Source of the DNA: a virus
DNA length: 47,717 nucleotides
Virus genome (UHGV): UHGV-0097968
Direction: 5' to 3' (one strand)
Part shown: piece by piece, positions 368-47,166 of the stretch
How positions within the stretch are numbered: the stretch's first letter is position 1
Layout of the letters: each line of letters opens with the position of its first letter
Made by a program: the position numbers and the translations under genes
Notes under the pieces: generated by a model
The model's database searches: none
Seen by the model: only the letters and a program-made list of their open reading frames with translations
What the model was told of the DNA's origin: nothing

Positions 368-454
368 GCCCGGATGGTGGAATCGGTAGACACAAGGGAT
401 TTAAAATCCCTCGGCGTTCGCGCTGTGCGGGTTCAAGTCCCGCTCCGGGTACCA
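368..454 (+). tRNA. leuZ: tRNA-Leu (anticodon UAA), long variable arm; intact copy, 3' part lies inside attL
   Basis: 87-nt type II tRNA GCCCGGATGGTGGAATCGGTAGACAC...GGGTACCA; anticodon stem AGGGA/TCCCT with loop TTTAAAA. Confidence 0.95.
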
Positions 455-523
455 TGGGAAAGATAAGAATAAAATCAAAGCAATAAGCAGTGTCGTGAAA
501 CCACCTTCGGGTGGTTTTTTTGT
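399..523. repeat. attL: left copy of 125-bp direct repeat (tRNA-Leu anticodon loop to the end of the operon terminator)
   Basis: Sequence 399-523 is identical by eye to 47042-47166; flanks diverge immediately outside (gg vs ca upstream, atcttc vs gcctgc downstream). Confidence 0.85.
499..522 (+). terminator. Rho-independent terminator downstream of tRNA-Leu (copy inside attL)
   Basis: Stem CCACC/GGTGG with TTCG loop followed by T7 run. Confidence 0.7.
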
Positions 524-11447: not shown

Positions 11448-11514
11448 GTGTGTTGCCGCTGGCATTCGTATCAAAGAAGAGTGAGATGGTAGCTTAGAAC
11501 ATCGGTAATTTTCA

Positions 11515-11568
11515 TTGACGTGATTATAACCTAAGGTTATCATCAAAATACTGTACATTTATACAGTG
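11515..11568 (+). promoter_or_regulatory. Promoter with palindromic operator and LexA (SOS) box upstream of the colicin-like gene
   Basis: TTGACG 11515-11520; 15-bp perfect palindrome ATAACCTAAGGTTAT 11526-11540 in the spacer; -10 TATCAT 11538-11543; LexA box TACTGTACATTTATACAGTG 11549-11568 (CTGT-N8-ACAG). Confidence 0.7.
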
Positions 11569-11623
11569 CTTAGAGGGTGATTCTCTAATATCTCTGGGAA
11601 ATAATTAATAGAAGGAAGTAGAT

Positions 11624-12775
11624 ATGGCATGGACTGGATTTGGTGGTCAATGGAATAACGGTGTGCATTCTGGCGGTGATGATTCTGGCAGTATAGGCGG
11701 TGGGGGCATAAAACTTGACGGCAAAGGGAATCCTGTAGGTACTCGTGCGCCGACTGCTGAGGAGATCGCATCACAATGGAATAGCTTTGGAGGTAGTCAG
11801 ATTAAACCCAGTGATGTATCGAACATCAGACCGGATGGTGAAGGTACTTATCAGGCTAACATTGCAGGTAATTACCACGTTGTAAGTTCGCAGGGCGCGA
11901 ATACCCCATTTGCTTCGGAACGTAGCAACGTTGCGGCAGGTTTTAGTGGTGGTGTGGGACCAACGCCTGATGGAAGGGGTAACAATAGTGCACCCAGCAA
12001 TCCAAAGGCTGAGGCCGAGGCAAAGAAATGGATTGAAACAGTCAAGGCTGTTCGGGCTGGTAATATCCCCTACGGTTATGTTCTTAACGACGGCAAGGTA
12101 GGCGTAAACGTGCCTCAATATGTTGAACGCCGCAAAGGTCGTGGCGACACATATACCGTTCGGGGTAAAGATTTGTTTGTTGTTTCGCCTGAACTGACAA
12201 AAGCGTATCAGGATGGTCTTGCGGAACGTGCTGAGATTCTGGACGCCGTCAAATTTACGTCTGATTTCTATAAAGACCTTGCAGGTAAATTTGGACAGCA
12301 TAACGCGAACATCGCAAAGGAACTGGCGGAGGCTGCAAAAGGCAAGAAGATTCGTAACAGCAAAGATGCACTGGCGGCGGTGGATAAATTTAATAACCGA
12401 CTGAGTAAAAAGTATGGAGCCAAAGACCTTGAGGCAGTTGCCAGGGCTTTGGAATCGGTTAACCGGGATGCAATGGCGAAGAATTTGTCTAAATTTGGTA
12501 AGGCATTTGGTGTCGCAAGTTATGCTGTCGATGCTTACAATGTTCTTTACATTGAATTTCCGAAAGCTATTCGTACCAAAAACTATCGCCCAATGCTTGT
12601 TAAGTTGGAGGCAATTCTTCTTGGTGCTGATGCTGGTATTGTTGCTGCGTGGGCATTTAGTGCGCTTCTGGCAACGCCGATGGGTATTCTGACGTTTGCG
12701 CTTATAATGGCATTGCTAAGTGCGATGATTAATGAAAAACGCATTGAGGAACTGAATAAGTTCTTAGGGATTTAA
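11624..12775 (+). CDS. Colicin E1-family pore-forming bacteriocin (short, 383 aa; Gly-rich N-terminal domain, C-terminal channel-forming domain)
   Basis: Gly-rich N-terminus MAWTGFGGQWNNGVHSGGDDSGSIGGGG; C-terminal domain with GKKIRN, KFGKAFGVAS, RTKNYRPMLVKLEAILLGADAGIVAAWAFSALLATPMGILTFALIMALLSAMINEKRIEELNKFLGI (hydrophobic hairpin and terminal NKFxGI) matching my recollection of colicin E1/Ia-type pore domains; SOS box in promoter; GAAGGAAG RBS. Confidence 0.85.
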   Translation: MAWTGFGGQWNNGVHSGGDDSGSIGGGGIKLDGKGNPVGTRAPTAEEIASQWNSFGGSQIKPSDVSNIRPDGEGTYQANIAGNYHVVSSQGANTPFASERSNVAAGFSGGVGPTPDGRGNNSAPSNPKAEAEAKKWIETVKAVRAGNIPYGYVLNDGKVGVNVPQYVERRKGRGDTYTVRGKDLFVVSPELTKAYQDGLAERAEILDAVKFTSDFYKDLAGKFGQHNANIAKELAEAAKGKKIRNSKDALAAVDKFNNRLSKKYGAKDLEAVARALESVNRDAMAKNLSKFGKAFGVASYAVDAYNVLYIEFPKAIRTKNYRPMLVKLEAILLGADAGIVAAWAFSALLATPMGILTFALIMALLSAMINEKRIEELNKFLGI

Positions 12776-12795
12776 CCGTTATCAGTAGTAACAAG

Positions 12796-12818
12796 GGCCA
12801 CGTCATGTGGCCTTTTTT
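12796..12818 (+). terminator. Rho-independent terminator after the colicin-like gene
   Basis: Stem GGCCAC/GTGGCC, loop GTCAT, then T6; the immunity gene stop codon lies inside the loop on the other strand. Confidence 0.6.
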
Positions 12819-13147
12819 GACAATTGAATATAAATAATAGACAGGAGGCCAATGGGAATGGAAAAAATAAAAAGAATACCGTGGTATAAACCCATTACCC
12901 CGCTTTTTAAACAGGTGTCTGTCCACGCTCCTGTTACCCATGATTCGGATGTTGTATATTTGAGGACGATGTTTTCTACAGCTTTTTTTGCATATGGGAA
13001 CAAGAAACAACTAATAACAGAAAGCATAACCAAATAATCCCATATCCACAAATCGCCTTCAGCTATGGCCTGATGCCACCTGAAAACCGTCATGCCGAGA
13101 AATACGCATCCGTACAGGATGTTGCTCAAATAATATCGAAATGTCAT
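12803..13147 (-). CDS. Colicin E1-type immunity protein (3-TM inner-membrane protein), convergent with toxin gene
   Basis: 114 aa; MTFRYYLSNILYG..., FPYAKKAVENI..., SIPIGLLSIIYI resemble ImmE1 (MSLRYYIKNILFG..., CPYSKYAIEYI..., AIPFGLLGLF) by recollection; three hydrophobic segments; opposite-strand arrangement typical of pore-former immunity genes. Confidence 0.8.
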   Translation of the reverse strand: MTFRYYLSNILYGCVFLGMTVFRWHQAIAEGDLWIWDYLVMLSVISCFLFPYAKKAVENIVLKYTTSESWVTGAWTDTCLKSGVMGLYHGILFIFSIPIGLLSIIYIQLSKKAT

Positions 13148-13444
13148 CTATGTTCCTTAAGTGTAGAACTCGTCTGACTGTTTTAACCATCCAGAACTCT
13201 ATGAATAACATAACATACCAGTCGTTACGAGAGTACAAGAAAACAATTGGTGATGTTTCTGTATCCGAAATATATCAAATAATAGATATTAAGAATAGTT
13301 GCCTAATATCTATTTGAAGTGTTTATGGATAATATCTATGACGACGAATTGTTCGCAGGGTTTATTGCAAGAGGGGAGCTACATGGTGTTGAGTACCCAC
13401 TGAATGTAGAGAATGTGAACACAGGCTGTTTGAAGTTGATTGAA

Positions 13445-13473
13445 TTGACTTAGAAAAAGTCCGGGGCTATAGT
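13445..13473 (+). promoter_or_regulatory. Candidate sigma70 promoter for a small RNA
   Basis: TTGACT 13445-13450, 17-bp spacer, TATAGT 13468-13473. Confidence 0.45.
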
Positions 13474-13479
13474 TTCCGC

Positions 13480-13556
13480 GCAGCCGCAAAATCGGTTGCC
13501 GGGATTTGCACCCCGGATATCTAAAAGGCGACAACGACGCGCCAGCGTCTTTTTTA
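13480..13556 (+). ncRNA. Candidate about 77-nt small regulatory RNA upstream of the antirepressor gene (C4-like/antisense-type)
   Basis: Promoter immediately upstream; hairpin GCAGCCG-CAAAAT-CGGTTGC; hairpin CCGGG-ATTTGCAC-CCCGG; terminator stem GACGC/GCGTC with GCCA loop and T6 at 13536-13556; loop sequence has a complementary and a direct copy in the antirepressor leader. Confidence 0.4.
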
Positions 13557-13715
13557 TTGTCGTGCGCACAGCCACATCCGCGATTTATGGTGGGGCGTGT
13601 AGGGGAGTCGAAAGGCTCGCCGGGTCCTTTTAGCCGGTAGTGCAAACCCTGCATGTCTCACCACCCAAAGATTTGCACCTGAGGGGGGTGATTATCCGAC
13701 TAAAAGGAAATCGCT

Positions 13716-14510
13716 ATGACAACTCAAGTATCCGCAGCAGCCATCTCCCCGATTATCCACAACCAACTTCCCGTCCTCACCACCGAATTACTCGCGAACC
13801 TCTATGGCACAGAGCCGGATTACATTCGTAAAAACCATAACCGGAACTCAGAGCGATTCGTGGTCGGGAAGCATTACTTTTTGCTCGAAGGTGAGGAGTT
13901 GCGCGAATTTAAGCACAGCATGTCTTTAAGACCTCCTGTGAAAATCGCCAGAAATGTCCGCTCTCTCATCCTCTGGACAGAACGCGGCGCAGCTCGCCAT
14001 GCCAAAATGCTGGAAACAGAACAGGCCTGGGAAGTTTTCGAAAAGCTGGAAGATTGTTATTTTAGCCAGCGTCCAGAGAGGCGGAGTACAACTACCGATG
14101 ACCGTACTCCCTTACGTGATGCCGTTAATATGCTGGTCGGTAAGAAAGGCATGATGTATCCCGATGCCTACACCATGATTCATCAACGCTTCGCCGTCTC
14201 TCACATAGAACAACTGTCACAGACGCAAATGTTAGAGGCGATTGAATACATCCACTGCCTGCTACTCGATGAAAATCAGCCAACCATTCCGGATTTTTCT
14301 TTTATCACCACTATCAAAAATGGAAAAGTGACAAGGATGCGCCATGTTGCCAAAGGCGAACATCTGATGACCTTTGACGCTTTCAAAGAGATCGCTGAGC
14401 GGGCAGGGTATCTGGTGATCCACAGCGACAACCTGCGAAGTATGACGCTGGATAAATTGATGCTAATGGGGGAAAAGTCGGCTGTATCCGTTGCTGATTC
14501 AGCATTTTGA
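13716..14510 (+). CDS. Putative antirepressor (ORF6N-like N-terminal domain)
   Basis: 264 aa; N-terminal region ISPIIHNQLPVLTTELLANLYGTEPDYIRKNHNRNSERFVVGKHYFLLEGEELREF resembles ORF6N/Ant-type domain by recollection; RBS AAAAGGAAA. Confidence 0.6.
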   Translation: MTTQVSAAAISPIIHNQLPVLTTELLANLYGTEPDYIRKNHNRNSERFVVGKHYFLLEGEELREFKHSMSLRPPVKIARNVRSLILWTERGAARHAKMLETEQAWEVFEKLEDCYFSQRPERRSTTTDDRTPLRDAVNMLVGKKGMMYPDAYTMIHQRFAVSHIEQLSQTQMLEAIEYIHCLLLDENQPTIPDFSFITTIKNGKVTRMRHVAKGEHLMTFDAFKEIAERAGYLVIHSDNLRSMTLDKLMLMGEKSAVSVADSAF

Positions 14511-14541
14511 CAGGTTGAATGTTTGGCGCGGTTATACTCTA

Positions 14542-14618
14542 TTTGCGCTTAAAAAGGTATTTAGTCACAACCAGCACGAGGCCGAATACTCTGTCAAAGT
14601 ACCGCCCATGTAAAACTG
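14542..14618 (-). pseudogene. Frameshifted 3' fragment homologous to the C-terminal end of the 18140-18745 membrane protein gene
   Basis: 77 bp with about 90% identity by eye to 18144-18220; minus-strand translation starts MGGTLTE then loses frame through a 1-bp deletion. Confidence 0.5.
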
Positions 14619-14687
14619 TAACGTATGTACTTGATGACTAAGCTGGCACCAGGTTAACACCAGGCGCCAGCTTGAAGGAAACTTCAG

Positions 14688-15611
14688 TTATTGGTTTCTG
14701 AGGAAAGCGATTCTTGAAAGGGTCATTTGCGTCTGGCAGTCGAGCATTTTCTTGACTTCAGCATCTGTTCCCTGCATTGAAACTTTACCGCACATAGCAT
14801 CCTTAGTTTTGATCCACTGACGCTGAGAAGGCAGCAAATCTTTTTTCTTCGCCGGGGTTAACTTGCTCCAGACGGTACTCAAATCAGAGTCGGCATTCGC
14901 AAATGCCATTCGGGACTGATCAAGGCTGTCAGCTTTTTGTGGCTGAAGTTGTGCCTGTCTCTCTATTTGCTTCTCCGCCTCATACTTAGCCTGTTCCTGC
15001 GCCCTGAGTTGCACCTGTTGTTCCGCTTCAATTTGGCTCTGTTGGGCATCCTTAGCCTGCTGGATTTTCTGCTGCTCAACGATCGGGTTGATAATAGAAA
15101 GTGATGTCAGTAAAGCGGCGCCCACTGATATCGGATTATCAGAAGAGGTTTTTACAAAAACGTTTTTCTGATCGTCGGTCGCCTGCACGGTGTAGGTGAT
15201 ACGTTTGGAAAAGGCGTTTGCGTTGTTCTCCAAAAACAGGCTTTCCATTTGCTTGTCGAGATTACGATTAAAATTCTTTCTGTAAGCATCTGAAAGCTGG
15301 ACGTACTCGTTCGCAGGTAGAGTCATCGTCACGGTCCCTTCACAAGTTTTCATTGTGCTGCCCGTGTCACTTGATGTTGTGGAGATTTCAGAGACGGCTA
15401 GTTTGATCTTGTCCAGTGTGCTTCGTTTGGTCTGATTAGTGACATCAGGGTATTTATCGACCTGTTCAGAGAGTCCTTCATAAGCAGATTTTTTTAATAA
15501 ATCCATGAGAGCTGATTGGGTCATTTCCGAAGAACAACCGATCTCATCTTTTTTGTTATCACAGCCTGTAAGGGCAATGGCGAGTAAGAGTACTGAGTAT
15601 TTTAATCTCAT
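14688..15611 (-). CDS. Lipoprotein with C-terminal DUF1311/LprI-like domain
   Basis: 307 aa; signal peptide with lipobox LTGC; Gln-rich coiled-coil middle; C-terminal motif WSKLTPAKKKDLLPSQRQWIKTKDAMC...C typical of DUF1311 by recollection. Confidence 0.75.
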   Translation of the reverse strand: MRLKYSVLLLAIALTGCDNKKDEIGCSSEMTQSALMDLLKKSAYEGLSEQVDKYPDVTNQTKRSTLDKIKLAVSEISTTSSDTGSTMKTCEGTVTMTLPANEYVQLSDAYRKNFNRNLDKQMESLFLENNANAFSKRITYTVQATDDQKNVFVKTSSDNPISVGAALLTSLSIINPIVEQQKIQQAKDAQQSQIEAEQQVQLRAQEQAKYEAEKQIERQAQLQPQKADSLDQSRMAFANADSDLSTVWSKLTPAKKKDLLPSQRQWIKTKDAMCGKVSMQGTDAEVKKMLDCQTQMTLSRIAFLRNQ

Positions 15612-16237
15612 GAATTCCCTTTAGAGTAAGGATTGGTTTTTAAGACGCGGTCTGTAATCAGTTCCGAGAGCTACAGTAAACAACGCTGAGCACTGAACGC
15701 ATCACAGGCAAGGTAAAAGGTGATATCGGCAAAGGCTGTGAAACCTTTAATTCAACAGATGGGAACGGTATGCGCAGGATCCTGTAACGACGCTCCCAAA
15801 ACCGGAAACCTGTAAGGCATGTTTTCGCTGCTGAACTTAATATACGAACCTGCACTATCATGAACATATTTTTTATCGTTATACCCCGAGTGATTGTGCC
15901 CGGCAATGGATAGTGTCCTGGAGGAACTATTTCTACTGTAAAAGGTAGACATTTAATTTCAGTGTGGAATTATTCCCTGCTGTTAATAACCATGGCTCTA
16001 TATGGCACCGAGCGGACTAGTTAACTTGCCTGAAAGCCGCTATGAGTGAGGAGCGAATATTGGCACGAGAGGATACCTGAACCATTTTTTGGACATGCGC
16101 TAAAAGCGAATGATTAGTTTTATCGGAATATTTACAGTATACTTACAAGGCAAGCTTGGCGTGCCGTCTTGGGCGAGATTGCTTAAATTATTTTGTGGAT
16201 ATATCATTCAAACAAAAGATAATAAAATGAGGTTGTT

Positions 16238-16435
16238 ATGTCATATATTCGCGTAGAGAAAGATGGCCTTCAGTATGAAGCAGAATACTTCCGTGAAGAG
16301 GATATGGTCACAGTCTTTGGGGTTAGAGGAGGGCATTCCAGCGTGGTTCTAAATGGAATGACAGAAGTCGCGGCTGCTCGTACTGCGTTACGAAATCTTA
16401 TTAGAGAAAATCAGGTTGATCCTCTAACTGATTAA
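16238..16435 (+). CDS. Hypothetical small protein
   Basis: 65-aa ORF with GAGG RBS; AT-rich surroundings. Confidence 0.45.
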   Translation: MSYIRVEKDGLQYEAEYFREEDMVTVFGVRGGHSSVVLNGMTEVAAARTALRNLIRENQVDPLTD

Positions 16436-16639
16436 AAATAAGCCATCTTAACTGAGAGCATATTTTGATATAATTTAGATTAAATCTATTTTGAAGGTTA
16501 GTTTGGGATGAGAAGATTACATCAAAACCGTTATTACTAGCAATAAGTTGTGTAAATCAAATAATACATAATCATGTGGTAACATATACTAAGCGTAGTA
16601 AAGTTTTTATATATTCCTGTAACTTTGTGAGAAACTTCC

Positions 16640-17305
16640 ATGAAAGCCGACAACTTAAGAATTATAGAGAATGGCAAATATGTTTTCGATATGTTCTTGG
16701 ATACTGGTGAATTTTACTATACAAGTCATGCCTTTGACACGAGAGAAGATGCAAAAAGCTGGATGGAAGAATGGCAGATTTGGGCAAATAATGTATCGAG
16801 TGGGAAAGTAAGTAGTATTTATTATATTTTACAAGTGCCTGATACTTGGGCCGGTTCTTCAGATAAAAATAACCCTTACTCGGGACTTTATGTGAAAATA
16901 GGGCGTTCCAATAATGTGCTAAAAAGGTTGTCTAACCTGCAGACAGGTGCATTTGGTCAATTAATATTACACGCTTTGGAACCTGGTGGTTCAGAAAAAG
17001 AAAACTATCTTCATGAAAAATTTAGCAACGAAAGACGTCAAGGTGAATGGTTTGTTTGTACTAAGGAACTTACCAAGCATATATTTACAACATGGTTTAA
17101 AAACAAAATGCTCCCACCAGAACATCAAATAAAAATAATGCAGCTCGCAGAAAGAATAGGTATTTATTCGCATGTTCATACACTAATGGGGGGGAAGCCA
17201 GACTTAGTAAACCCATCTATTAGTGAACCTTGGGAATGCGAAAAATATGTTTTGGTTGATATGATTTATAGCTCTTTAGCAAAGCAAGTTAATCATAAAA
17301 AATAA
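16640..17305 (+). CDS. T5orf172 (GIY-YIG-like) domain protein with unassigned N-terminal domain
   Basis: 221 aa; GLYVKIGRSNNVLKRLSNLQTG ... ENYLHEKFSNERRQGEWF matches the T5orf172/MUG113 signature (KIG..., LQTG, LH..F...R..GEWF) by recollection; AT-rich region. Confidence 0.7.
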   Translation: MKADNLRIIENGKYVFDMFLDTGEFYYTSHAFDTREDAKSWMEEWQIWANNVSSGKVSSIYYILQVPDTWAGSSDKNNPYSGLYVKIGRSNNVLKRLSNLQTGAFGQLILHALEPGGSEKENYLHEKFSNERRQGEWFVCTKELTKHIFTTWFKNKMLPPEHQIKIMQLAERIGIYSHVHTLMGGKPDLVNPSISEPWECEKYVLVDMIYSSLAKQVNHKK

Positions 17306-17625
17306 AGTGTTACATTTTAACTATACAATTATTGATTCACTAATGAAGAGGTGATTTAGACGTATGAAGTTTTAATAAGCTCCAAGAATATTTTGTCATA
17401 AATGGGTTAAAGAGTTATATAATAATATCTGCTTCTGGAATACAGCAGACAAGCACCTGCAGATAAAGGTCTGCTGAGAGCGAGAAGCGGATCATACGTT
17501 GGAAGTTGTTTAGGCAAATACGTTATAAACGTATTTGATTAAATTTACTTGGATCATAGTCTTCAATAACGCTTTATTATATTGTTTTTCATGCAGCAAA
17601 CAGGTTTACAGGTAGGTAATAAGCT

Positions 17626-18030
17626 ATGAGTGGATGGAAAGAGTCTTTTACATTAGCAGAACAGATACAATTAGCATTAAATTTAGGTTATGAGGCTGTA
17701 CCAGATGAAGAGGCATATACTGGGGCATACTTCATTAAAGGTGGTAAGAAGTGGATCTTTAACATCATCGGTCTCAAAAAGACATTGAATATATCTTCAG
17801 ATGATGAACTAAGAGGGCAGGATTATGATGTTGATATGTATTTCGAAATTCGCCAAAATTGGGCACAATACCAAGATATGATCTTTGGAAGCGAAGATAT
17901 CACTCCTTCACCTAAAAATGAACTTACTTCAATTTACCATGACCTGCAGGTAACGGATGAACCCAGGGAAATGGTGTATCTTTCTGATGGGATGTGGCTG
18001 GATCCCAACGGACGAATTGTACAACGATAG
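17626..18030 (+). CDS. Hypothetical protein
   Basis: 134-aa ORF in AT-rich accessory region. Confidence 0.45.
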   Translation: MSGWKESFTLAEQIQLALNLGYEAVPDEEAYTGAYFIKGGKKWIFNIIGLKKTLNISSDDELRGQDYDVDMYFEIRQNWAQYQDMIFGSEDITPSPKNELTSIYHDLQVTDEPREMVYLSDGMWLDPNGRIVQR

Positions 18031-18139
18031 CACTCGAACACACTCAGTAATCGTCTATAAGGCCAGCACTTGTTACTTGGTCATTTGGGGTTGCTGGTCT
18101 TCTCCATTAAATCGACTAAAGTCTGTTCCATAGAGAGAG

Positions 18140-18745
18140 TTACTTGCGTTTAAAAAGGTATTTTGTCACGACCAGCACGAGGCCGAATACCTCTGTCAAA
18201 GTACCGCCCATGTACAACTGGAGCGTTAAGTCTTTAAATACAAGCCATTCAGCACCAGTGGCAAAAAATACACCATTCATTATCAAAAGCTGGCAAGCAA
18301 GGATAATAAGGAACCATTTGCCATAGCGTTTTTTTAGATCGATTTCAGCTTCAAAATCTTTGTTGTTGAGTTGTTTGCGCTCATGCTCAGTATCAAGTGA
18401 ATTCACCTGTTTCACAGATGTGAACTCGGTCAAGATTTTACTCTCAGTACGGGTGACTTGTTGAGAGGGGGTAGGAATTGGAATTCTTTTGATTGACGCA
18501 GCTACAGCCATTTTGCGAGCTTCGGCAGCTCTTTTTCTGGCTATTCCGTGAATACGGGCAGACGGTTTTTTTGGAGCGTGCGAAACCTTTGTCTGAGGTG
18601 AAGTTTCGTCAGGAGACTGAACCGGAGTTTCATCCTCCTCCGGCTCAACCTCTTCTGCTAACTGACGGTGTAGGTTGAGGGAATCCTTCAGTCGGCGTGC
18701 AACTTCCTGTTTGAAACGGCTGTTAAAATCGTCATCCGATGGCAT
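18140..18745 (-). CDS. Membrane protein (disordered charged N-terminal region, two C-terminal TM helices), co-operonic with ImmA-like peptidase
   Basis: 201 aa; hydrophobic segments WFLIILACQLLIMNGVFFATGA and GTLTEVFGLVLVVTKYL; 9-bp gap to upstream peptidase gene; 3' end duplicated at 14542-14618. Confidence 0.65.
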   Translation of the reverse strand: MPSDDDFNSRFKQEVARRLKDSLNLHRQLAEEVEPEEDETPVQSPDETSPQTKVSHAPKKPSARIHGIARKRAAEARKMAVAASIKRIPIPTPSQQVTRTESKILTEFTSVKQVNSLDTEHERKQLNNKDFEAEIDLKKRYGKWFLIILACQLLIMNGVFFATGAEWLVFKDLTLQLYMGGTLTEVFGLVLVVTKYLFKRK

Positions 18746-18754
18746 TCTAAAGCG

Positions 18755-19243
18755 TTACCCCAACCTCAAGTTCTTTAAACGATAAGTCATCGCATCGTCA
18801 GATACGCCAAAATGATGCGCCATTATATAACTTGGTTGGCCGTCAGCGTGCAGTTTTCTGACCTCATCTACCGGCATCAGAAGTTCTGCTGCGAACTTGT
18901 TCGCAAAAATTTCATCAGGATGCGTTCCGGCGCTTGCGGTTTCGCCACGTAAATCAACGTACTCATATTCATCGCTATGCGATGCTTGCCGGGCGATGTA
19001 ATGCCCCAACTCATGCCCACATGAAAAACGTTGACGAACTTTGTTGTCATCACTGTTTAGAAAGATCGCTGGATCTTGATCTTTTTGTTTAATCAGTGCG
19101 CCAGAAACTTTCCCAGGAAGATCGGTAATAAAAACATCTAATCCCATGTCGTGAGCAATTTTCGCTGGATCAACAGGGAAACCACGCCCGCACCAGAACG
19201 TGTCCAGCACTCGCCGGGCGTGCTCTCTTGGGTTGGTAGCCAT
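18755..19243 (-). CDS. ImmA/IrrE-family zinc metallopeptidase (COG2856-like)
   Basis: 162 aa; HEXXH motif in RQRFSCGHELGHYIA; downstream EIFANKFAAELLMPVDEV and FGVSDDAMTYRLKNL typical of ImmA/IrrE. Confidence 0.8.
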   Translation of the reverse strand: MATNPREHARRVLDTFWCGRGFPVDPAKIAHDMGLDVFITDLPGKVSGALIKQKDQDPAIFLNSDDNKVRQRFSCGHELGHYIARQASHSDEYEYVDLRGETASAGTHPDEIFANKFAAELLMPVDEVRKLHADGQPSYIMAHHFGVSDDAMTYRLKNLRLG

Positions 19244-19810
19244 AGCTCCTCCAGTTACTGCATTACGATTATTGGTTGAAATATAGACAACATGTTCCGT
19301 ACCACATTCCTGTAAAAGTGCAAATTCTGCACTTCTGGTACGATATTAACTGTTAGTAGTAAAGTCTTCCAGATAAATCACTTTAAAATCTTGTGAATTG
19401 CTTGCTTTTTACGCTGCATTGTGGATGACTCAATGTTTCCAGTAAAAACATACAGGATAATCATGAGATTAGTGGTTTTTTAGGCATCCATATGTTTCTG
19501 AAAAAAATGGATGCCACAAGCGCCTGGATGAGCACAGGAAGGGAAGGCTATTACATGTGTGATTTATTACATCTGTAAAAAAATACAGATCTAACTTGAT
19601 CTTTTCATTGAAGTCTTTCTTAGTCCTGGATAGGATCTGGAGGTTGCGAAGTTTTTAGAGTCGCATCAAAGGGAAAGCCCTGACAGTTGGAGCTGTCAGG
19701 GCCATACAAAAACATCGGTTAATGCTTTCGTTGAGATCTCGGTTTGGGAGATTACCTCAACCGGGATCCCGTGTAAAGCATTCATTGCCGAAAATGATAT
19801 AGGTCAATGA

Positions 19811-20089
19811 ATGAAACACATCTGTAAAAAGTCACATCGTCACGACAGTATGTTTGATGTTCTTTCTGCAAATCAGGGTAACGTTGGGCGGCACAAGTGT
19901 TGTGGATGTGCCTATGATAAAGGTATGTGGCATGCATTAATCGGCGTTCCGCGTGCGGTTGATGACTCTGTTTTAGGTGATTTACCCGAAAGCCAGGCTG
20001 GGCATGTCCGTCATAAAGATGCTTTTGAAGCATATAATATGGGCTATGACCATGGGATGCATAAAAAAGCCTATGGTATGGCCTCATAA
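19811..20089 (+). CDS. Hypothetical Cys/His-rich small protein
   Basis: 92-aa ORF followed by strong terminator; the overlapping minus-strand ORF has implausible His/Tyr-rich composition. Confidence 0.45.
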   Translation: MKHICKKSHRHDSMFDVLSANQGNVGRHKCCGCAYDKGMWHALIGVPRAVDDSVLGDLPESQAGHVRHKDAFEAYNMGYDHGMHKKAYGMAS

Positions 20090-20109
20090 TCTGGTGCAAA
20101 TGAATAACT

Positions 20110-20137
20110 AACCCGCTTCGGCGGGTTTTCTTTTTTA
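20110..20137 (+). terminator. Rho-independent terminator
   Basis: Stem ACCCGC/GCGGGT, loop TTCG, T-rich tail TTTCTTTTTTAT. Confidence 0.65.
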
Positions 20138-20206
20138 TAGAACCCTGCGATGTGAAAACGAATAATAAATTGTGCAAATAATGCAATTTTTTTATTCGAG
20201 GTAATT

Positions 20207-20848
20207 ATGAAAACCTTCTATGAGGGCTGGCCTGAAACTTTCGTTAGCCGGTTAGATATGTTACGGGCGTTGGATGATCGCGGTTCGACCCGGAGGCTCT
20301 ATCTTGAGCGGACCGGAGCAATATTTGACTCTCTGGCAGAAGAGATACGTACAGCCGTTGCCGGGCATCCTGAAATTGACGCGAGTGAACTTGATATCGG
20401 GCCGCTATATCGCTATTACAAACGTGGAGAAAAGGGGGATCCGCTGGCTGACTTACTTATTAAATTGGCTCCACCAACCTGTGAACGGGTTCGTATATCC
20501 CCTGAAGTGTACACAATCCCGTATTTGTTTTTTGCACTGTTGATAGCGCAAGGCGCTGACAACGATGCCCGCGATTTTTTCAATATGATGATGCGACCGT
20601 TAATCATTGCTTACCGTTTCAAACAACTGGCGCGTTACCTTGGCACTAAGGGCGGAGGACGACCACAGCACAGATTAAAAAGCGAAGCCATTGAACTGGC
20701 TGATCGTTTTTTTACTGAAAACCCGACAGCGCCATTATCGCGTGGTGTGCAATACATATCCGGTATTTTTGTGGCGAAATACTCTGACCCACCTGCAGCG
20801 TCGACGATTAGAAAATGGTTAATTTCAATTTACAGGAGTGATAAATAA
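20207..20848 (+). CDS. Hypothetical protein
   Basis: 213-aa ORF with GAGG RBS; no recognised motif. Confidence 0.55.
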   Translation: MKTFYEGWPETFVSRLDMLRALDDRGSTRRLYLERTGAIFDSLAEEIRTAVAGHPEIDASELDIGPLYRYYKRGEKGDPLADLLIKLAPPTCERVRISPEVYTIPYLFFALLIAQGADNDARDFFNMMMRPLIIAYRFKQLARYLGTKGGGRPQHRLKSEAIELADRFFTENPTAPLSRGVQYISGIFVAKYSDPPAASTIRKWLISIYRSDK

Positions 20849-21853: not shown

Positions 21854-22143
21854 AAAAAATCGACCTCAGAAAAGCTGCACGCGGTCGCGCTTGTACTGTG
21901 CGTATCCCCGGTGTGTGTAATCACAATCCGGAAACCAGTGTACTGGCTCACTACCGCCTCGCCGGAACATGCGGAACAGCAATCAAACCACACGATATGC
22001 AGGGCGCTATCGCCTGCAGTGCGTGTCACGATGCTATCGACGGACGTACAAAAACGGATTACGAGCACGACTCATTGCTGTTGATGCACGCTGAGGGAGT
22101 TTTCAGAACACTGGCTATCTGGCGCGATGAGGAGTTTATCTGA
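21850..22143 (+). CDS. DUF1364 (YbcO-like) nin-region protein
   Basis: 97 aa; DLRKAARGRACTVRIPGVCNHNPETSVLAH...IACSACHD resembles YbcO by recollection. Confidence 0.6.
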   Translation: MKKIDLRKAARGRACTVRIPGVCNHNPETSVLAHYRLAGTCGTAIKPHDMQGAIACSACHDAIDGRTKTDYEHDSLLLMHAEGVFRTLAIWRDEEFI

Positions 22144-22814
22144 TGAGTAACGAGTATTTATTGGAATATACCCGCATAAAACTGCGCGCTGCATTGCGGG
22201 ATTTGTCTGGTGGTTCTAAGGGGCAACTGGAAGCATTGTGTGAGCACCCGCCGGCAGACAAAAACGCATACCCACGCAAACATATTCATCGTGTGCAACT
22301 GGAGGACCGGACCGTTGATGCTCTGGTTACGCCAGTTTACGCCCTGGAAAGTTTCAGCAGACGTCGCCCCGCGCCGCCGATGAATGATTTTGAATTTGCT
22401 GATTCATCCTGGCGGCGTTCTGTGAACTCGCTGGATGCAAGTCAGCAAGCGTGGTTGCGCTATTGCTACGGTGGTAACCTGGCGTTCAAACACCAAACAG
22501 CTATTTGTGAGGCTGTCTGGAGTCGCTATAAAGGAAACATCCCCGCGTCAACTCAGAGAAAAGTAGTCAAGCGCCTGCTTTCGCTGGTGTGGTTGTCCGT
22601 GCAGGCGGTCGCAGCAGCAAATAAACGCGAGGATTTTAAGGAGATGGCCGGATCTGCGCTAGCTGGAATGTTGTCTGTTTCTCGCTCCACCTGGTGCGAA
22701 ACATACTCCCCGCACTGGGCAGGAATGAAAGAGGCGGTGAGAGCACTTGATGAAGTGGCACTTCTTGCAACTTTGCATCATTATCAAAACCATTTAGACG
22801 ACGTTTGCGTATAA
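22143..22814 (+). CDS. Putative late-gene antiterminator (Q-like) by position
   Basis: 223-aa ORF immediately upstream of the late promoter region and holin gene; no family motif confirmed. Confidence 0.4.
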   Translation: MSNEYLLEYTRIKLRAALRDLSGGSKGQLEALCEHPPADKNAYPRKHIHRVQLEDRTVDALVTPVYALESFSRRRPAPPMNDFEFADSSWRRSVNSLDASQQAWLRYCYGGNLAFKHQTAICEAVWSRYKGNIPASTQRKVVKRLLSLVWLSVQAVAAANKREDFKEMAGSALAGMLSVSRSTWCETYSPHWAGMKEAVRALDEVALLATLHHYQNHLDDVCV

Positions 22815-47041: not shown

Positions 47042-47166
47042 ATTTAAAATCCCTCGGCGTTCGCGCTGTGCGGGTTCAAGTCCCGCTCCGGGTACCATGG
47101 GAAAGATAAGAATAAAATCAAAGCAATAAGCAGTGTCGTGAAACCACCTTCGGGTGGTTTTTTTGT
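47042..47166. repeat. attR: right copy of the 125-bp direct repeat (3' fragment of tRNA-Leu plus terminator)
   Basis: Identical by eye to 399-523; contains only the 3' 56 nt of the tRNA (47042-47097) plus the terminator hairpin. Confidence 0.85.

What the first reader, a model, noticed from the sequence alone, without database searches (positions are those of the whole stretch)
14542..18220. Accessory segment bracketed by 77-bp imperfect direct repeats, one of which is a frameshifted gene 3'-end remnant
14542-14618 and 18144-18220 are about 90% identical by eye. The right copy encodes the last 23 codons of the membrane-protein gene; the left copy is the same gene end with a 1-bp deletion and no upstream coding sequence. 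That pattern is the footprint of homologous recombination between related phages at a conserved gene end, which brought in or rearranged the segment holding the DUF1311 lipoprotein, the T5orf172 protein and two small ORFs. It marks a mosaic junction and a likely hotspot for cargo exchange.
Basis: seen in the sequence. Interest (0 to 1): 0.45.

Follow-up and report, generated by a model that had tools for sequence, protein, structure and literature searches.

The report
Gene-end stub flanking swappable prophage cargo
Two 86-87-base direct repeats in an E. coli prophage are the intact end of a membrane-protein gene and a dead stub of a second allele; recombination at this gene end has swapped or deleted the accessory genes between them, an ordinary but well-documented case of phage mosaicism.

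Summary
Window 14539-14624 and 18140-18226 are direct repeats: 86 aligned columns, 90.7% identity, one 1-bp gap, E=1.7e-26. The only other internal repeat in the window is the prophage att pair.

- **What the copies are.** The right copy is the last 28 codons plus stop of a 201-aa membrane-protein gene. The left copy is a truncated, frameshifted stub. Six of its 7 differing codons are synonymous, so it came from a diverged functional allele, not from a local duplication.
- **Deletion between the repeats.** E. coli GPEC172 is an ST131-type relative that lacks exactly the 3,423 bp between the repeats. Its single copy is a left/right chimera with the crossover in a 29-nt identical tract.
- **Crossover in the window's own ancestry.** A crossover maps to 18133-18220, inside the right copy.
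- **Variable cargo.** The segment is composite. It holds a conserved DUF1311/LprI module (14639-15840, also found in Klebsiella plasmids) and a variable slot (16013-18117). In relatives the slot holds other cargo, including the validated defence gene PD-T4-3.

Readings as an att site, a target-site duplication, a terminator or a structured RNA were tested and not supported. This is a new example of a known kind, of moderate-to-low interest.

The parts
13716..14510 (+). ORF6N-type antirepressor gene. It is the conserved left flank and converges on the left repeat copy, 28 nt downstream.
   Evidence: Pfam ORF6N 1.2e-18; phrog_4792 anti-repressor 2.5e-149; shared by all relatives.
14539..14624 (-). 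Left repeat copy: a stub of the membrane-protein gene's 3' end (28 codons plus TAG stop). It is frameshifted by a 1-bp deletion at 14589/14590 and has no upstream coding sequence.
   Evidence: It diverges at a neutral-like rate: 88.5% identity to the ST131-type left copy, against 96-98% for the flanking genes.
14641..14674 (.). Strong hairpin between the stub and the LprI stop codon. It is part of the LprI module and is probably a terminator for the convergent ant and LprI transcripts.
   Evidence: RNA fold -28.2 kcal/mol, z=-4.9, 0 of 200 shuffles as stable. It lies inside the stretch shared with Klebsiella plasmids.
14639..15840 (-). DUF1311/LprI lipoprotein module (CDS 14688-15611, lipobox LTGC) with its upstream region. 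It is conserved in nearly all relatives of this prophage and is 87% identical to Klebsiella plasmids.
   Evidence: Pfam LprI 3.2e-7; phrog_5094; Klebsiella plasmid hits 86-87%.
16013..18117 (+). Variable cargo slot, window type: 65-aa ORF 16238-16435, T5orf172/MUG113 (GIY-YIG superfamily) protein 16640-17305, and 134-aa ORF 17626-18030.
   Evidence: Present in only 18 of 5,426 E. coli genomes, always at this place, at 99.2-99.8% identity, while the surrounding region is 96-98% identical. Replaced by other genes in relatives.
16142..17491 (+). Two-gene sub-cassette (65 aa plus T5orf172) that also occurs elsewhere.
   Evidence: 84% DNA identity to a Morganella morganii prophage end between icd and int; the 65-aa protein is 91% identical.
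18140..18226 (-). Right repeat copy: the functional last 28 codons plus TAA stop of the membrane-protein gene. It encodes the family's nearly invariant C-terminal transmembrane block.
   Evidence: Alignment A5 shows LTLQLYMGGTLTEVFGLVLVVTKYLFKRK nearly invariant across Enterobacteriaceae. It is 97.7% conserved against 92.3% for the rest of the gene.
18133..18220 (.). Crossover interval in the window's own ancestry. To the left the window is E62-like; to the right it is L008-like.
   Evidence: The window is identical to E62 over 18060-18220, then differs at 40 sites in 18221-18639. It is identical to L008 over 18133-18591, while L008 is unrelated before 18118.
18140..18745 (-). 201-aa membrane-protein gene (phrog_5346, no Pfam family): variable N-terminal region and two C-terminal transmembrane helices.
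18755..19243 (-). ImmA/IrrE (Peptidase_M78) metalloprotease gene, the conserved partner located immediately upstream of the membrane-protein gene.
   Evidence: Pfam 1.4e-17; PADLOC capP-like 1.6e-25. The pair is conserved in Klebsiella, Serratia, Salmonella and other E. coli prophages.

Best explanation
The window is a lambdoid prophage integrated at tRNA-Leu (leuZ). The two repeats are the 3' ends of two alleles of one gene, the membrane-protein partner of an ImmA-type protease.

**Founding event (inferred).** An ancestor had the antirepressor gene converging directly on this membrane gene. Recombination with a related phage brought in a block made of the LprI module, cargo, and the incoming allele of the membrane gene with ImmA. 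That exchange left the last 87 nt of the resident allele as a stub next to the antirepressor gene.

**Fate of the stub (shown).** The stub has since decayed. It carries a 1-bp deletion in this lineage and an in-frame stop in the ST131 lineage.

**Why the gene end is a crossover point (shown, except mechanism).** The last 28 codons are under strong protein-level constraint. They therefore remain the best-conserved DNA between otherwise diverged alleles and serve as a short patch of homology. Crossovers there have swapped the adjacent cargo and gene alleles, as seen in the window's own ancestry. Crossover between the stub and the intact gene end has deleted everything in between and regenerated an intact chimeric gene, as seen in GPEC172.

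**The slot (shown).** The slot next to the gene end (16013-18117) is a variable accessory position. In relatives it holds anti-phage genes such as PD-T4-3.

**Enzymes (not shown).** Which recombinase acted, host RecA or a phage recombinase, is not established.
For: - **Significance of the repeat.** E=1.7e-26; the only other repeat in the window is the att pair.
- **Origin of the left copy.** Six of 7 differing codons are synonymous, and the stop changes TAA to TAG.
- **Deletion in GPEC172.** Its flanks are 99.95% (4,207 nt) and 99.87% (5,271 nt) identical to SK1144, with 3,423 bp missing. Its single copy is left-type up to a 29-nt identical tract and right-type after it.
- **Crossover in the window.** It maps to 18133-18220, inside the right copy.
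- **Selection on the block.** The C-terminal block is nearly invariant in protein across genera. Its DNA is only about 70% identical in distant homologues. So the constraint acts on the protein, and DNA homology is a by-product among close relatives.
- **Divergence rates.** Left copy 88.5% against 96-98% for flanking genes; right copy 97.7% against 92.3% for the rest of the gene.
- **Alternative cargo between the same flanks.** A 232-aa gene in roughly 420 ST131-type genomes; PD-T4-3 (5.7e-138, 1.7e-137); NsnA/GmrSD-like (4.6e-41); SMEK and methyltransferase genes.
- **Cargo versus surrounding region.** The cargo is 99.2-99.8% identical across prophages in which the wider 7.1-kb region is 96-98% identical.
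- **Published support.** Homology-driven exchange at short, diverged sequences between temperate phages is experimentally established (PMC3945230).
Against: - The founding event is not reconstructed. I found no extant phage with a full-length left-type allele next to the antirepressor gene. GPEC172 is a secondary deletion, not an ancestor.
- The inner end of the stub coincides, within one codon, with the start of the invariant protein block. It also coincides with the truncation point of a second orphan copy in locus L021. A random illegitimate junction does not predict that.
- GPEC172 is a single genome of 5,426. An assembly error there cannot be formally excluded, although a 29-nt identical tract is an unlikely cause of mis-assembly in a chromosome-level assembly.
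- Not all cargo replacements use the repeat. Left junctions lie at 14551, 14809 and 16012.
Confidence: 0.85

Rival explanations
1. The repeats are attL/attR-like sites of a small integrated element that inserts by site-specific recombination into the 3' end of the membrane gene and carries a replacement gene end, as e14 and phage 21 do in icd.
For: The pattern looks the same: an intact gene end on one side of the insert and an orphan gene-end copy on the other. In Klebsiella, Salmonella and some E. coli prophages, the ImmA-membrane pair lies 24-40 bp from the 3' end of an integrase gene.
Against: - There is no recombinase gene between the repeats.
- Cargo variants have different left junctions: 14551, 14809 and 16012.
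- E. coli genomes with the integrase-adjacent module have only one copy of the gene end.
- DNA of the block is only about 70% identical in distant homologues, with synonymous sites free to vary.
- The copies differ at 8 of 86 columns. The longest identical tracts are 24 nt in the window and 29 nt in the ST131 type.
Confidence: 0.04
2. Cargo spread is driven by a freestanding homing endonuclease. The T5orf172 protein here, and other GIY-YIG or HNH genes in relatives, would cut the conserved gene end in phages lacking the cargo. Double-strand-break repair would then copy the nuclease gene and its neighbours in (intronless homing). The stub would be a by-product of an imprecise repair.
For: - Nuclease-domain genes recur in this slot: T5orf172, PD-T4-3-type GIY-YIG plus HNH in E24377A, GIY-YIG in L013, and HNH_3 directly after the membrane gene in Serratia.
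- The cargo is 99.2-99.8% identical across prophages in which the wider region is 96-98% identical.
- Crossovers fall in the conserved gene end.
- T5orf172 belongs to the GIY-YIG superfamily, and ICP1 phage carries putative homing endonuclease genes of this type (PMC8263062).
Against: - The commonest cargo (ST131 type, 232-aa protein) has no nuclease domain.
- PD-T4-3 is a validated defence gene, not a homing enzyme (PMC12409345).
- The T5orf172 gene lies 835 nt from the repeat, with another gene in between.
- There are no cleavage data.
- Ordinary homologous recombination explains all observations.
Confidence: 0.08
3. A local tandem or segmental duplication of the gene end within one genome, followed by neutral decay of the left copy.
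For: Direct orientation; the left copy is now decaying.
Against: Six of the 7 codon differences are synonymous and the seventh is conservative. That is the signature of divergence under coding constraint in two functional genes. Post-duplication decay of a pseudogene should hit codon positions evenly. The sequences flanking the two copies are unrelated.
Confidence: 0.03
4. The left copy is a functional element. It could be a terminator, or a trans-acting antisense segment in the antirepressor 3' UTR that pairs with the membrane-gene mRNA.
For: The left copy lies 28 nt after the antirepressor stop and before the first strong hairpin, so it is probably transcribed with the antirepressor gene. 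Its plus strand is about 91% complementary to the 3' end of the membrane-gene mRNA (inference).
Against: - No terminator-like site was found in either copy.
- Folding of either copy on either strand is indistinguishable from shuffles, z from -0.7 to +1.3.
- The left copy evolves faster than its flanks.
- It is reduced to 13 nt in L008.
- It persists as an orphan in E24377A-type prophages, which lack the membrane gene altogether.
Confidence: 0.02

Closest known systems
Mosaic junctions of lambdoid phages formed by relaxed homologous recombination at short conserved sequences (De Paepe et al. 2014, PMC3945230; 'boundary/linker sequences' of HK97/HK022/HK620 comparisons, the latter cited from my own knowledge)
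   Same: A short conserved stretch of 87 nt, about 91% identical, is flanked by unrelated sequence. Crossovers map inside it. The exchange is between related temperate prophages. The stretch borders recently exchanged fragments.
   Different: Here the conserved stretch is duplicated within one genome, because a stub of the displaced allele was retained. It therefore also supports intragenomic deletion. Dependence on a recombinase was not tested. I found no Rad52-like recombinase among the early-region ORFs I scanned, only a large exonuclease (phrog_2489) and a Gp157-family protein.
Prophage hotspots of anti-phage systems (P2/P4 hotspots, Rousset et al. 2022, PMC9122126; Vassallo et al. 2022, PMC9519451)
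   Same: Conserved flanking genes bracket a hypervariable slot whose alternative contents include validated defence genes: PD-T4-3 at full length, and an NsnA/GmrSD-like gene.
   Different: This slot is in a leuZ-integrated lambdoid prophage, between the antirepressor/LprI genes and an ImmA-membrane gene pair, not in P2 or P4. I did not find this slot described in the papers I searched. The window's own cargo matches no known defence model.
Gene 3'-end duplication by site-specific prophage integration (e14 and phage 21 in icd; cited from my own knowledge)
   Same: An intact gene end and an orphan copy of the same gene end in direct orientation bracket foreign DNA. The two copies differ mainly at synonymous sites.
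   Different: There is no integrase in or next to the insert. The insert boundaries vary between relatives. Relatives with an integrase-adjacent module show no second copy. It resembles that system in pattern only.
Intronless homing of freestanding GIY-YIG/HNH endonuclease genes in T-even phages (Seg and Mob genes; cited from my own knowledge)
   Same: Nuclease-domain genes sit between conserved genes and show presence/absence polymorphism among close relatives. The cargo is more similar than the surrounding region.
   Different: No target cleavage is known. The most common cargo lacks a nuclease. One of the nuclease genes in this slot is a known defence gene.

Membership tests
Homologous-recombination mosaic junction between temperate phages | A short stretch of high similarity flanked on both sides by unrelated or much more diverged sequence | tested here: met
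   The two copies share 86 aligned columns at 90.7% identity, and their flanks do not align.
Homologous-recombination mosaic junction between temperate phages | Recombinant genomes whose crossover maps inside the shared stretch | tested here: met
   The GPEC172 chimera has its crossover in a 29-nt identical tract. The window itself has a crossover at 18133-18220 between E62-like and L008-like sequence.
Homologous-recombination mosaic junction between temperate phages | Dependence on RecA or a phage recombinase | not testable with these tools
   This needs genetics. No Rad52-like recombinase was recognised among the early-region ORFs scanned.
Pseudogene remnant of a displaced allele | Homology to a gene end, loss of reading frame or of upstream coding sequence, and neutral-rate divergence | tested here: met
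   There is a 1-bp deletion here and an in-frame stop in the ST131 lineage. The LprI stop codon lies 63 nt away. Identity is 88.5% against 96-98% for the flanks.
Prophage accessory/defence hotspot | Conserved flanks with alternative gene content in related genomes | tested here: met
   At least six contents plus one empty state were found between antirepressor/LprI and membrane/ImmA or the 213-aa gene.
Prophage accessory/defence hotspot | Known defence systems among the alternative contents | tested here: met
   PD-T4-3 at 5.7e-138 (E24377A) and 1.7e-137 (L013); NsnA-like at 4.6e-41 (L021).
Prophage accessory/defence hotspot | The cargo of this window protects against phage | not testable with these tools
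   There is no significant PADLOC hit for the 65-aa, T5orf172 or 134-aa proteins. This needs plaque assays.
Site-specific integration with gene-end duplication (att sites) | A recombinase gene within or adjacent to the bracketed segment | tested here: not met
   ORFs between the repeats are LprI, 65 aa, T5orf172 and 134 aa; none is an integrase. The prophage's own integrase is at 585-1631, next to the tRNA att site.
Site-specific integration with gene-end duplication (att sites) | Constant element boundaries in all carriers | tested here: not met
   Left junctions lie at 14551 (L008), 14809 (L013) and 16012 (SK1144, E24377A).
Transposon target-site duplication | Short identical direct repeats flanking an element with terminal inverted repeats and a transposase | tested here: not met
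   The repeats are 86 nt and 9% diverged. There are no terminal inverted repeats at 14625/18139 and no transposase.
Freestanding homing endonuclease cassette | A GIY-YIG or HNH family gene inserted between conserved genes, with presence/absence polymorphism | tested here: inconclusive
   T5orf172/MUG113 domain present. The cassette occurs in 18 of 5,426 genomes and also in Morganella. However, it lies 835 nt from the conserved gene end and is accompanied by unrelated genes.
Freestanding homing endonuclease cassette | Cleavage of the cognate cargo-less site | not testable with these tools
   A biochemical assay is needed.

The most novel reading that the evidence does not exclude
The slot next to the duplicated gene end may be an undescribed defence hotspot of leuZ-type lambdoid prophages. 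Under this reading the window's cargo (the mobile 65-aa plus T5orf172 nuclease cassette and the 134-aa protein) and the widely conserved ImmA-protease/two-helix membrane-protein pair are uncharacterised anti-phage or superinfection-exclusion systems. A variant reading is that the T5orf172 protein is a homing nuclease that targets the invariant gene end, which would explain why independent truncations and crossovers cluster there.
Probability: 0.3. Interest if true: 0.55.

Novelty: new member of a known kind. Interest (0 to 1): 0.3.

Why it matters
This locus gives a clean natural example of how a few dozen bases of protein-constrained sequence can act as a recombination handle in temperate phages. 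The same 87-nt gene end accounts for three things:
- a stub left by an old replacement;
- a crossover in this genome's own ancestry;
- a precise deletion of 3.4 kb of accessory genes in a wild isolate.

It also marks a variable slot in a prophage family present in roughly 450 of 5,426 complete E. coli genomes, including ST131-type genomes. That slot carries a validated defence gene in some members and unknown genes in others. It is therefore a practical place to look for new phage-defence or exclusion functions.

None of this changes current understanding of phage mosaicism.

Tried and rejected
- **Terminators and promoters.** A scan of 13300-20300 found no terminator-like site in either copy.
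- **RNA structure.** Folding both copies on both strands gave stabilities no better than shuffles. Rfam finds only isrK and C4 upstream of the antirepressor gene, and three tRNAs.
- **att-site hypothesis.** I followed it because homologous ImmA-membrane modules abut integrase genes in other prophages. I rejected it because those genomes have one copy of the gene end, the block's DNA is only about 70% conserved in distant homologues, and there is no recombinase in the segment.
- **Target-site duplication or inverted repeats.** Nothing fits.
- **Phage and plasmid collections.** No phage record has the full arrangement. One phage (vB_EcoM-705R4) matches from the ImmA gene rightwards (window about 18755-20499), and many match part of the antirepressor gene. 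Plasmids match only the LprI module.
- **Search for an ancestral phage** with a full-length left-type allele next to the antirepressor gene. None was found. The only contiguous antirepressor-membrane junction (GPEC172) is a secondary deletion.
- **Chi site.** By eye, the block has GCTGGTCG on the gene strand, one mismatch from Chi, so it is not a canonical Chi site.
- **Literature.** Searches for DUF1311 in prophages and for T5orf172 in defence found no description of this locus.

Full report
**Context.** The window is a lambdoid prophage.
- It begins with tRNA-Gly, tRNA-Cys and tRNA-Leu.
- The 125 bp at 399-523, which include the 3' part of tRNA-Leu, recur at 100% identity at 47042-47166. This is the prophage att pair.
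- The tyrosine integrase gene is at 585-1631.
- The rest is a lambdoid layout: repressor region, replication genes, an isrK and C4 RNA pair upstream of an ORF6N antirepressor gene (13716-14510), antiterminator Q at 22143-22814, then lysis and morphogenesis genes.
- Related prophages occur in hundreds of complete E. coli genomes.

**The observation.**
- Self-comparison of the whole window gives two internal repeats: the att pair, and 14540-14624 versus 18141-18226. The second has 86 columns, 7 mismatches and one 1-bp gap, is 90.7% identical, and has E=1.7e-26.
- With the stop codon included, the copies are 14539-14624 and 18140-18226.
- The right copy is the last 28 codons plus TAA of the 201-aa gene 18140-18745 on the minus strand.
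- The left copy, read on the minus strand with its missing base at 14589/14590 restored, encodes TLQFYMGGTLTEVFGLVLVVTKYLFKRK followed by TAG.
- On its gene-sense upstream side there is only a 14-nt spacer, a strong hairpin (14641-14674, -28 kcal/mol, z=-4.9), and the stop codon of the DUF1311/LprI gene at 14688.
The repeat is a little longer than reported, and the coding part is 28 codons, not 23.

**Where the left copy came from.** Seven codons differ between the copies. Six differences are synonymous, including TAA to TAG, and one is a conservative Leu to Phe.
- This is the pattern of two functional alleles diverging under selection. It is not the pattern of a local duplication that then decayed.
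- The stub is now decaying. Between this window and the ST131-type prophage of strain SK1144, the left copy is 88.5% identical while the neighbouring genes are 96-98% identical.
- The stub carries a frameshift in the lineage of this window (shared with E62 and E24377A) and an in-frame stop in the SK1144 lineage.
- By contrast, the right copy is the best-conserved part of its gene: 97.7% against 92.3% for the rest.

**Why this gene end.** Homologues of the membrane protein occur in E. coli, Klebsiella, Enterobacter, Salmonella, Kosakonia, Cronobacter, Buttiauxella, Leclercia, Serratia and Plesiomonas.
- Their N-terminal regions are hypervariable. The last 29 residues, LTLQLYMGGTLTEVFGLVLVVTKYLFKRK, are nearly invariant.
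- In distant homologues the DNA of this block is only 59-63 of 87 identical. The constraint is therefore on the protein, and no DNA-level site needs to be invoked.
- Among closely related phages, the result is an island of DNA identity at the very end of a gene whose other parts differ.

**Direct evidence of recombination at the repeat.**
1. I built a query joining the antirepressor 3' half to the right copy and membrane gene, and searched 5,426 complete E. coli genomes.
   - One genome, GPEC172, matches it as a single contiguous piece. Its antirepressor gene is followed 24 nt later by an intact 201-aa gene.
   - Its flanks are 99.95% (4,207 nt, 2 mismatches) and 99.87% (5,271 nt, 7 mismatches) identical to SK1144, which has both copies 3,423 bp apart.
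   - Its single copy is identical to the SK1144 left copy up to a 29-nt tract shared by both copies (CCGAATACCTCTGTCAAAGTACCGCCCAT), and identical to the SK1144 right copy afterwards.
It is viable because the SK1144 left copy has no frameshift in the part retained.
2. The window itself is a recombinant.
   - It is identical to E62 from 18060 to 18220 and then differs at 40 positions up to 18639.
   - It is identical to the IMG/VR contig L008 from 18133 to 18591, while L008 carries unrelated cargo before 18118.
   - The crossover therefore lies in 18133-18220, inside the right copy.

**The bracketed segment is composite.**
- Window 13393-16012 (isrK, C4, antirepressor, stub, LprI module) is shared by all close relatives.
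- Within it, 14639-15840 is also 87% identical to Klebsiella plasmids of about 110 kb.
- The variable part is 16013-18117. Its window-type content (65-aa ORF, T5orf172 protein, 134-aa ORF) occurs in only 18 of 5,426 genomes. It is always at this place, at 99.2-99.8% identity, although the wider 7.1-kb region in those genomes is 96-98% identical to the window.
- Inside it, the 65-aa plus T5orf172 pair (16142-17491) recurs at 84% DNA identity in a Morganella prophage, between icd and an integrase gene.
- Homologues of the T5orf172 protein lie next to DUF4435 plus AAA_15 genes in Enterobacter, and in a cassette-rich region with BrnT and ParE toxins in Vibrio.

**Alternative contents of the slot.**
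- A 232-aa protein in the ST131-type prophages. These make up about 28 of 60 evenly spaced rows of 849 matching genomes, so roughly 400-450 genomes.
- In E24377A, SE11, TUM13936 and others: a 186-aa protein, an HNH protein, PD-T4-3 (5.7e-138) and three more genes. Here the replacement extends rightwards and also removes the membrane gene and ImmA, leaving the left stub as an orphan.
- In L013: PD-T4-3 (1.7e-137), a DUF6650 protein and two more genes. The left junction lies inside the LprI gene at 14809.
- In L021: an NsnA/GmrSD-like protein (4.6e-41) and a 204-aa protein.
- In L008: SMEK-domain, methyltransferase-like and two other proteins. The left junction is at 14551, so only 13 nt of the stub remain.
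- PD-T4-3 is an experimentally validated single-gene GIY-YIG defence (PMC12409345). Prophages are known to hold defence genes at fixed hotspots (PMC9519451; PMC9122126).

**Mechanism.** The model below has shown and inferred parts.
- Inferred: a related phage donated a block containing LprI, cargo and its own allele of the membrane gene with ImmA. One crossover fell in or beyond the shared module. The other was a junction 87 nt from the end of the resident allele.
- Shown: the stub exists, it derives from a diverged functional allele, and it decays neutrally. The conserved gene end has been used as a crossover point at least twice.
- Supported by experiment elsewhere: exchange at short, diverged homology between temperate phages and prophages. 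[quoted passage not shown]
- For this window specifically, the longest identical tracts between the copies are 20 nt (ACCAGCACGAGGCCGAATAC) and 24 nt (14589-14612 matching 18191-18214). Deletion should therefore be rarer than in the ST131 type. Only crossovers left of the 1-bp deletion would leave an intact gene.

**Rivals.**
- An att-type duplication (the icd/e14 pattern) was worth testing, because the ImmA-membrane module lies directly against integrase genes in Klebsiella, Salmonella and some E. coli prophages. It fails on four counts: no recombinase in the segment, variable boundaries, one copy per genome in those relatives, and no DNA-level conservation of the block.
- A local duplication is contradicted by the synonymous-substitution pattern.
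- A regulatory or structural role for the repeats has no support.
- Homing by the nuclease-domain genes in the slot remains possible as a contributor to cargo spread. It is not needed, and it does not fit the commonest cargo.

**Unexplained.** Three boundaries fall within a few nucleotides of each other: the inner end of the stub, the truncation point of a second degenerate orphan copy in L021 (which has an in-frame stop and no membrane gene behind it), and the start of the invariant protein block. One possibility is that the L021 copy arose by recombination between a right copy and an older stub. A preferred break site is another. I could not decide between them.

**Verdict.** It is a well-documented instance of a known process in a prophage family that has not, as far as my searches show, been described at this locus. 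Interest is moderate to low for the repeat itself. The slot it marks, and two things seen in passing (a prophage-borne colicin-like gene and CRISPR spacers matching this region), may deserve separate follow-up.

Noticed in passing
window 11451-13392 (ORFs 11624-12775 + and 12803-13147 -): This segment is an insertion relative to all close relatives. It carries a 383-aa pore-forming colicin-like gene (Pfam Colicin 2.2e-45) and an E1-type immunity gene inside the prophage. It has no megablast match in 5,426 complete E. coli genomes. The best plasmid-encoded protein is only 34% identical over 90% of the length (Citrobacter koseri), and about 52% in the pore domain (Serratia). A prophage-borne, divergent colicin is unusual and may merit its own look.
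   Followed up: partly
window 15580-15611 and 19004-19035: Spacers in E. coli type I-E CRISPR arrays are identical to these two 32-nt sites. The first is the start of the LprI gene; the array is next to cas1e-cas2e in AR_0372, and several other strains have the same hit. The second lies inside the ImmA gene (strain JX21CE8). Both protospacers are preceded by ATG, a PAM-like motif for type I-E.
   Followed up: partly
window 18140-19243; loci L031, L034, L035, L038: The 162-aa ImmA/IrrE protease (PADLOC capP-like, 1.6e-25) and the membrane protein form a conserved two-gene module in prophages of several Enterobacteriaceae. The module sits at different positions: against the integrase gene in Klebsiella, Salmonella (between the yccA gene and SPI-5 genes pipA, pipB and sopB) and some E. 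coli, and between a Q-like antiterminator and the holin gene in Serratia. Its function is unknown. The partner is not the usual helix-turn-helix repressor.
   Followed up: partly
locus L021 5219-5306 (IMG/VR UViG_3300030310_000017): A second, degenerate, orphan copy of the gene end (in-frame stop, no membrane gene or ImmA behind it). It is truncated within a few nt of the same codon as the left stub. The reason for the coincidence is unexplained.
   Followed up: partly
window 13480-13555 and 13583-13668: isrK (76 bits) and C4 antisense RNA (74 bits) lie just upstream of the antirepressor gene, a P1/P7 immI-like arrangement. A sigma-70-like promoter match lies at 13445-13473, and a terminator-like site at 13536-13549 falls within isrK.
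   Followed up: no
window 19506-20109: A second small variable stretch, to the right of ImmA. The window and E62 have a 92-aa ORF (phrog_3941), and ST131-type prophages have a different 77-aa gene on the other strand. Its right boundary coincides with a bidirectional terminator-like hairpin at 20110-20127.
   Followed up: no
window 16142-17491; loci L040, L043, L045: The 65-aa plus T5orf172 pair is a mobile two-gene cassette. It is 84% identical in DNA to a Morganella morganii prophage end next to icd. Homologues lie beside DUF4435 plus AAA_15 (PARIS-like) genes in Enterobacter, and among toxin-antitoxin cassettes in Vibrio vulnificus.
   Followed up: partly
window 399-523 and 47042-47166: A 125-bp perfect direct repeat that includes the 3' part of tRNA-Leu. 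It marks the prophage ends, so the prophage spans about 46.7 kb of the window.
   Followed up: no
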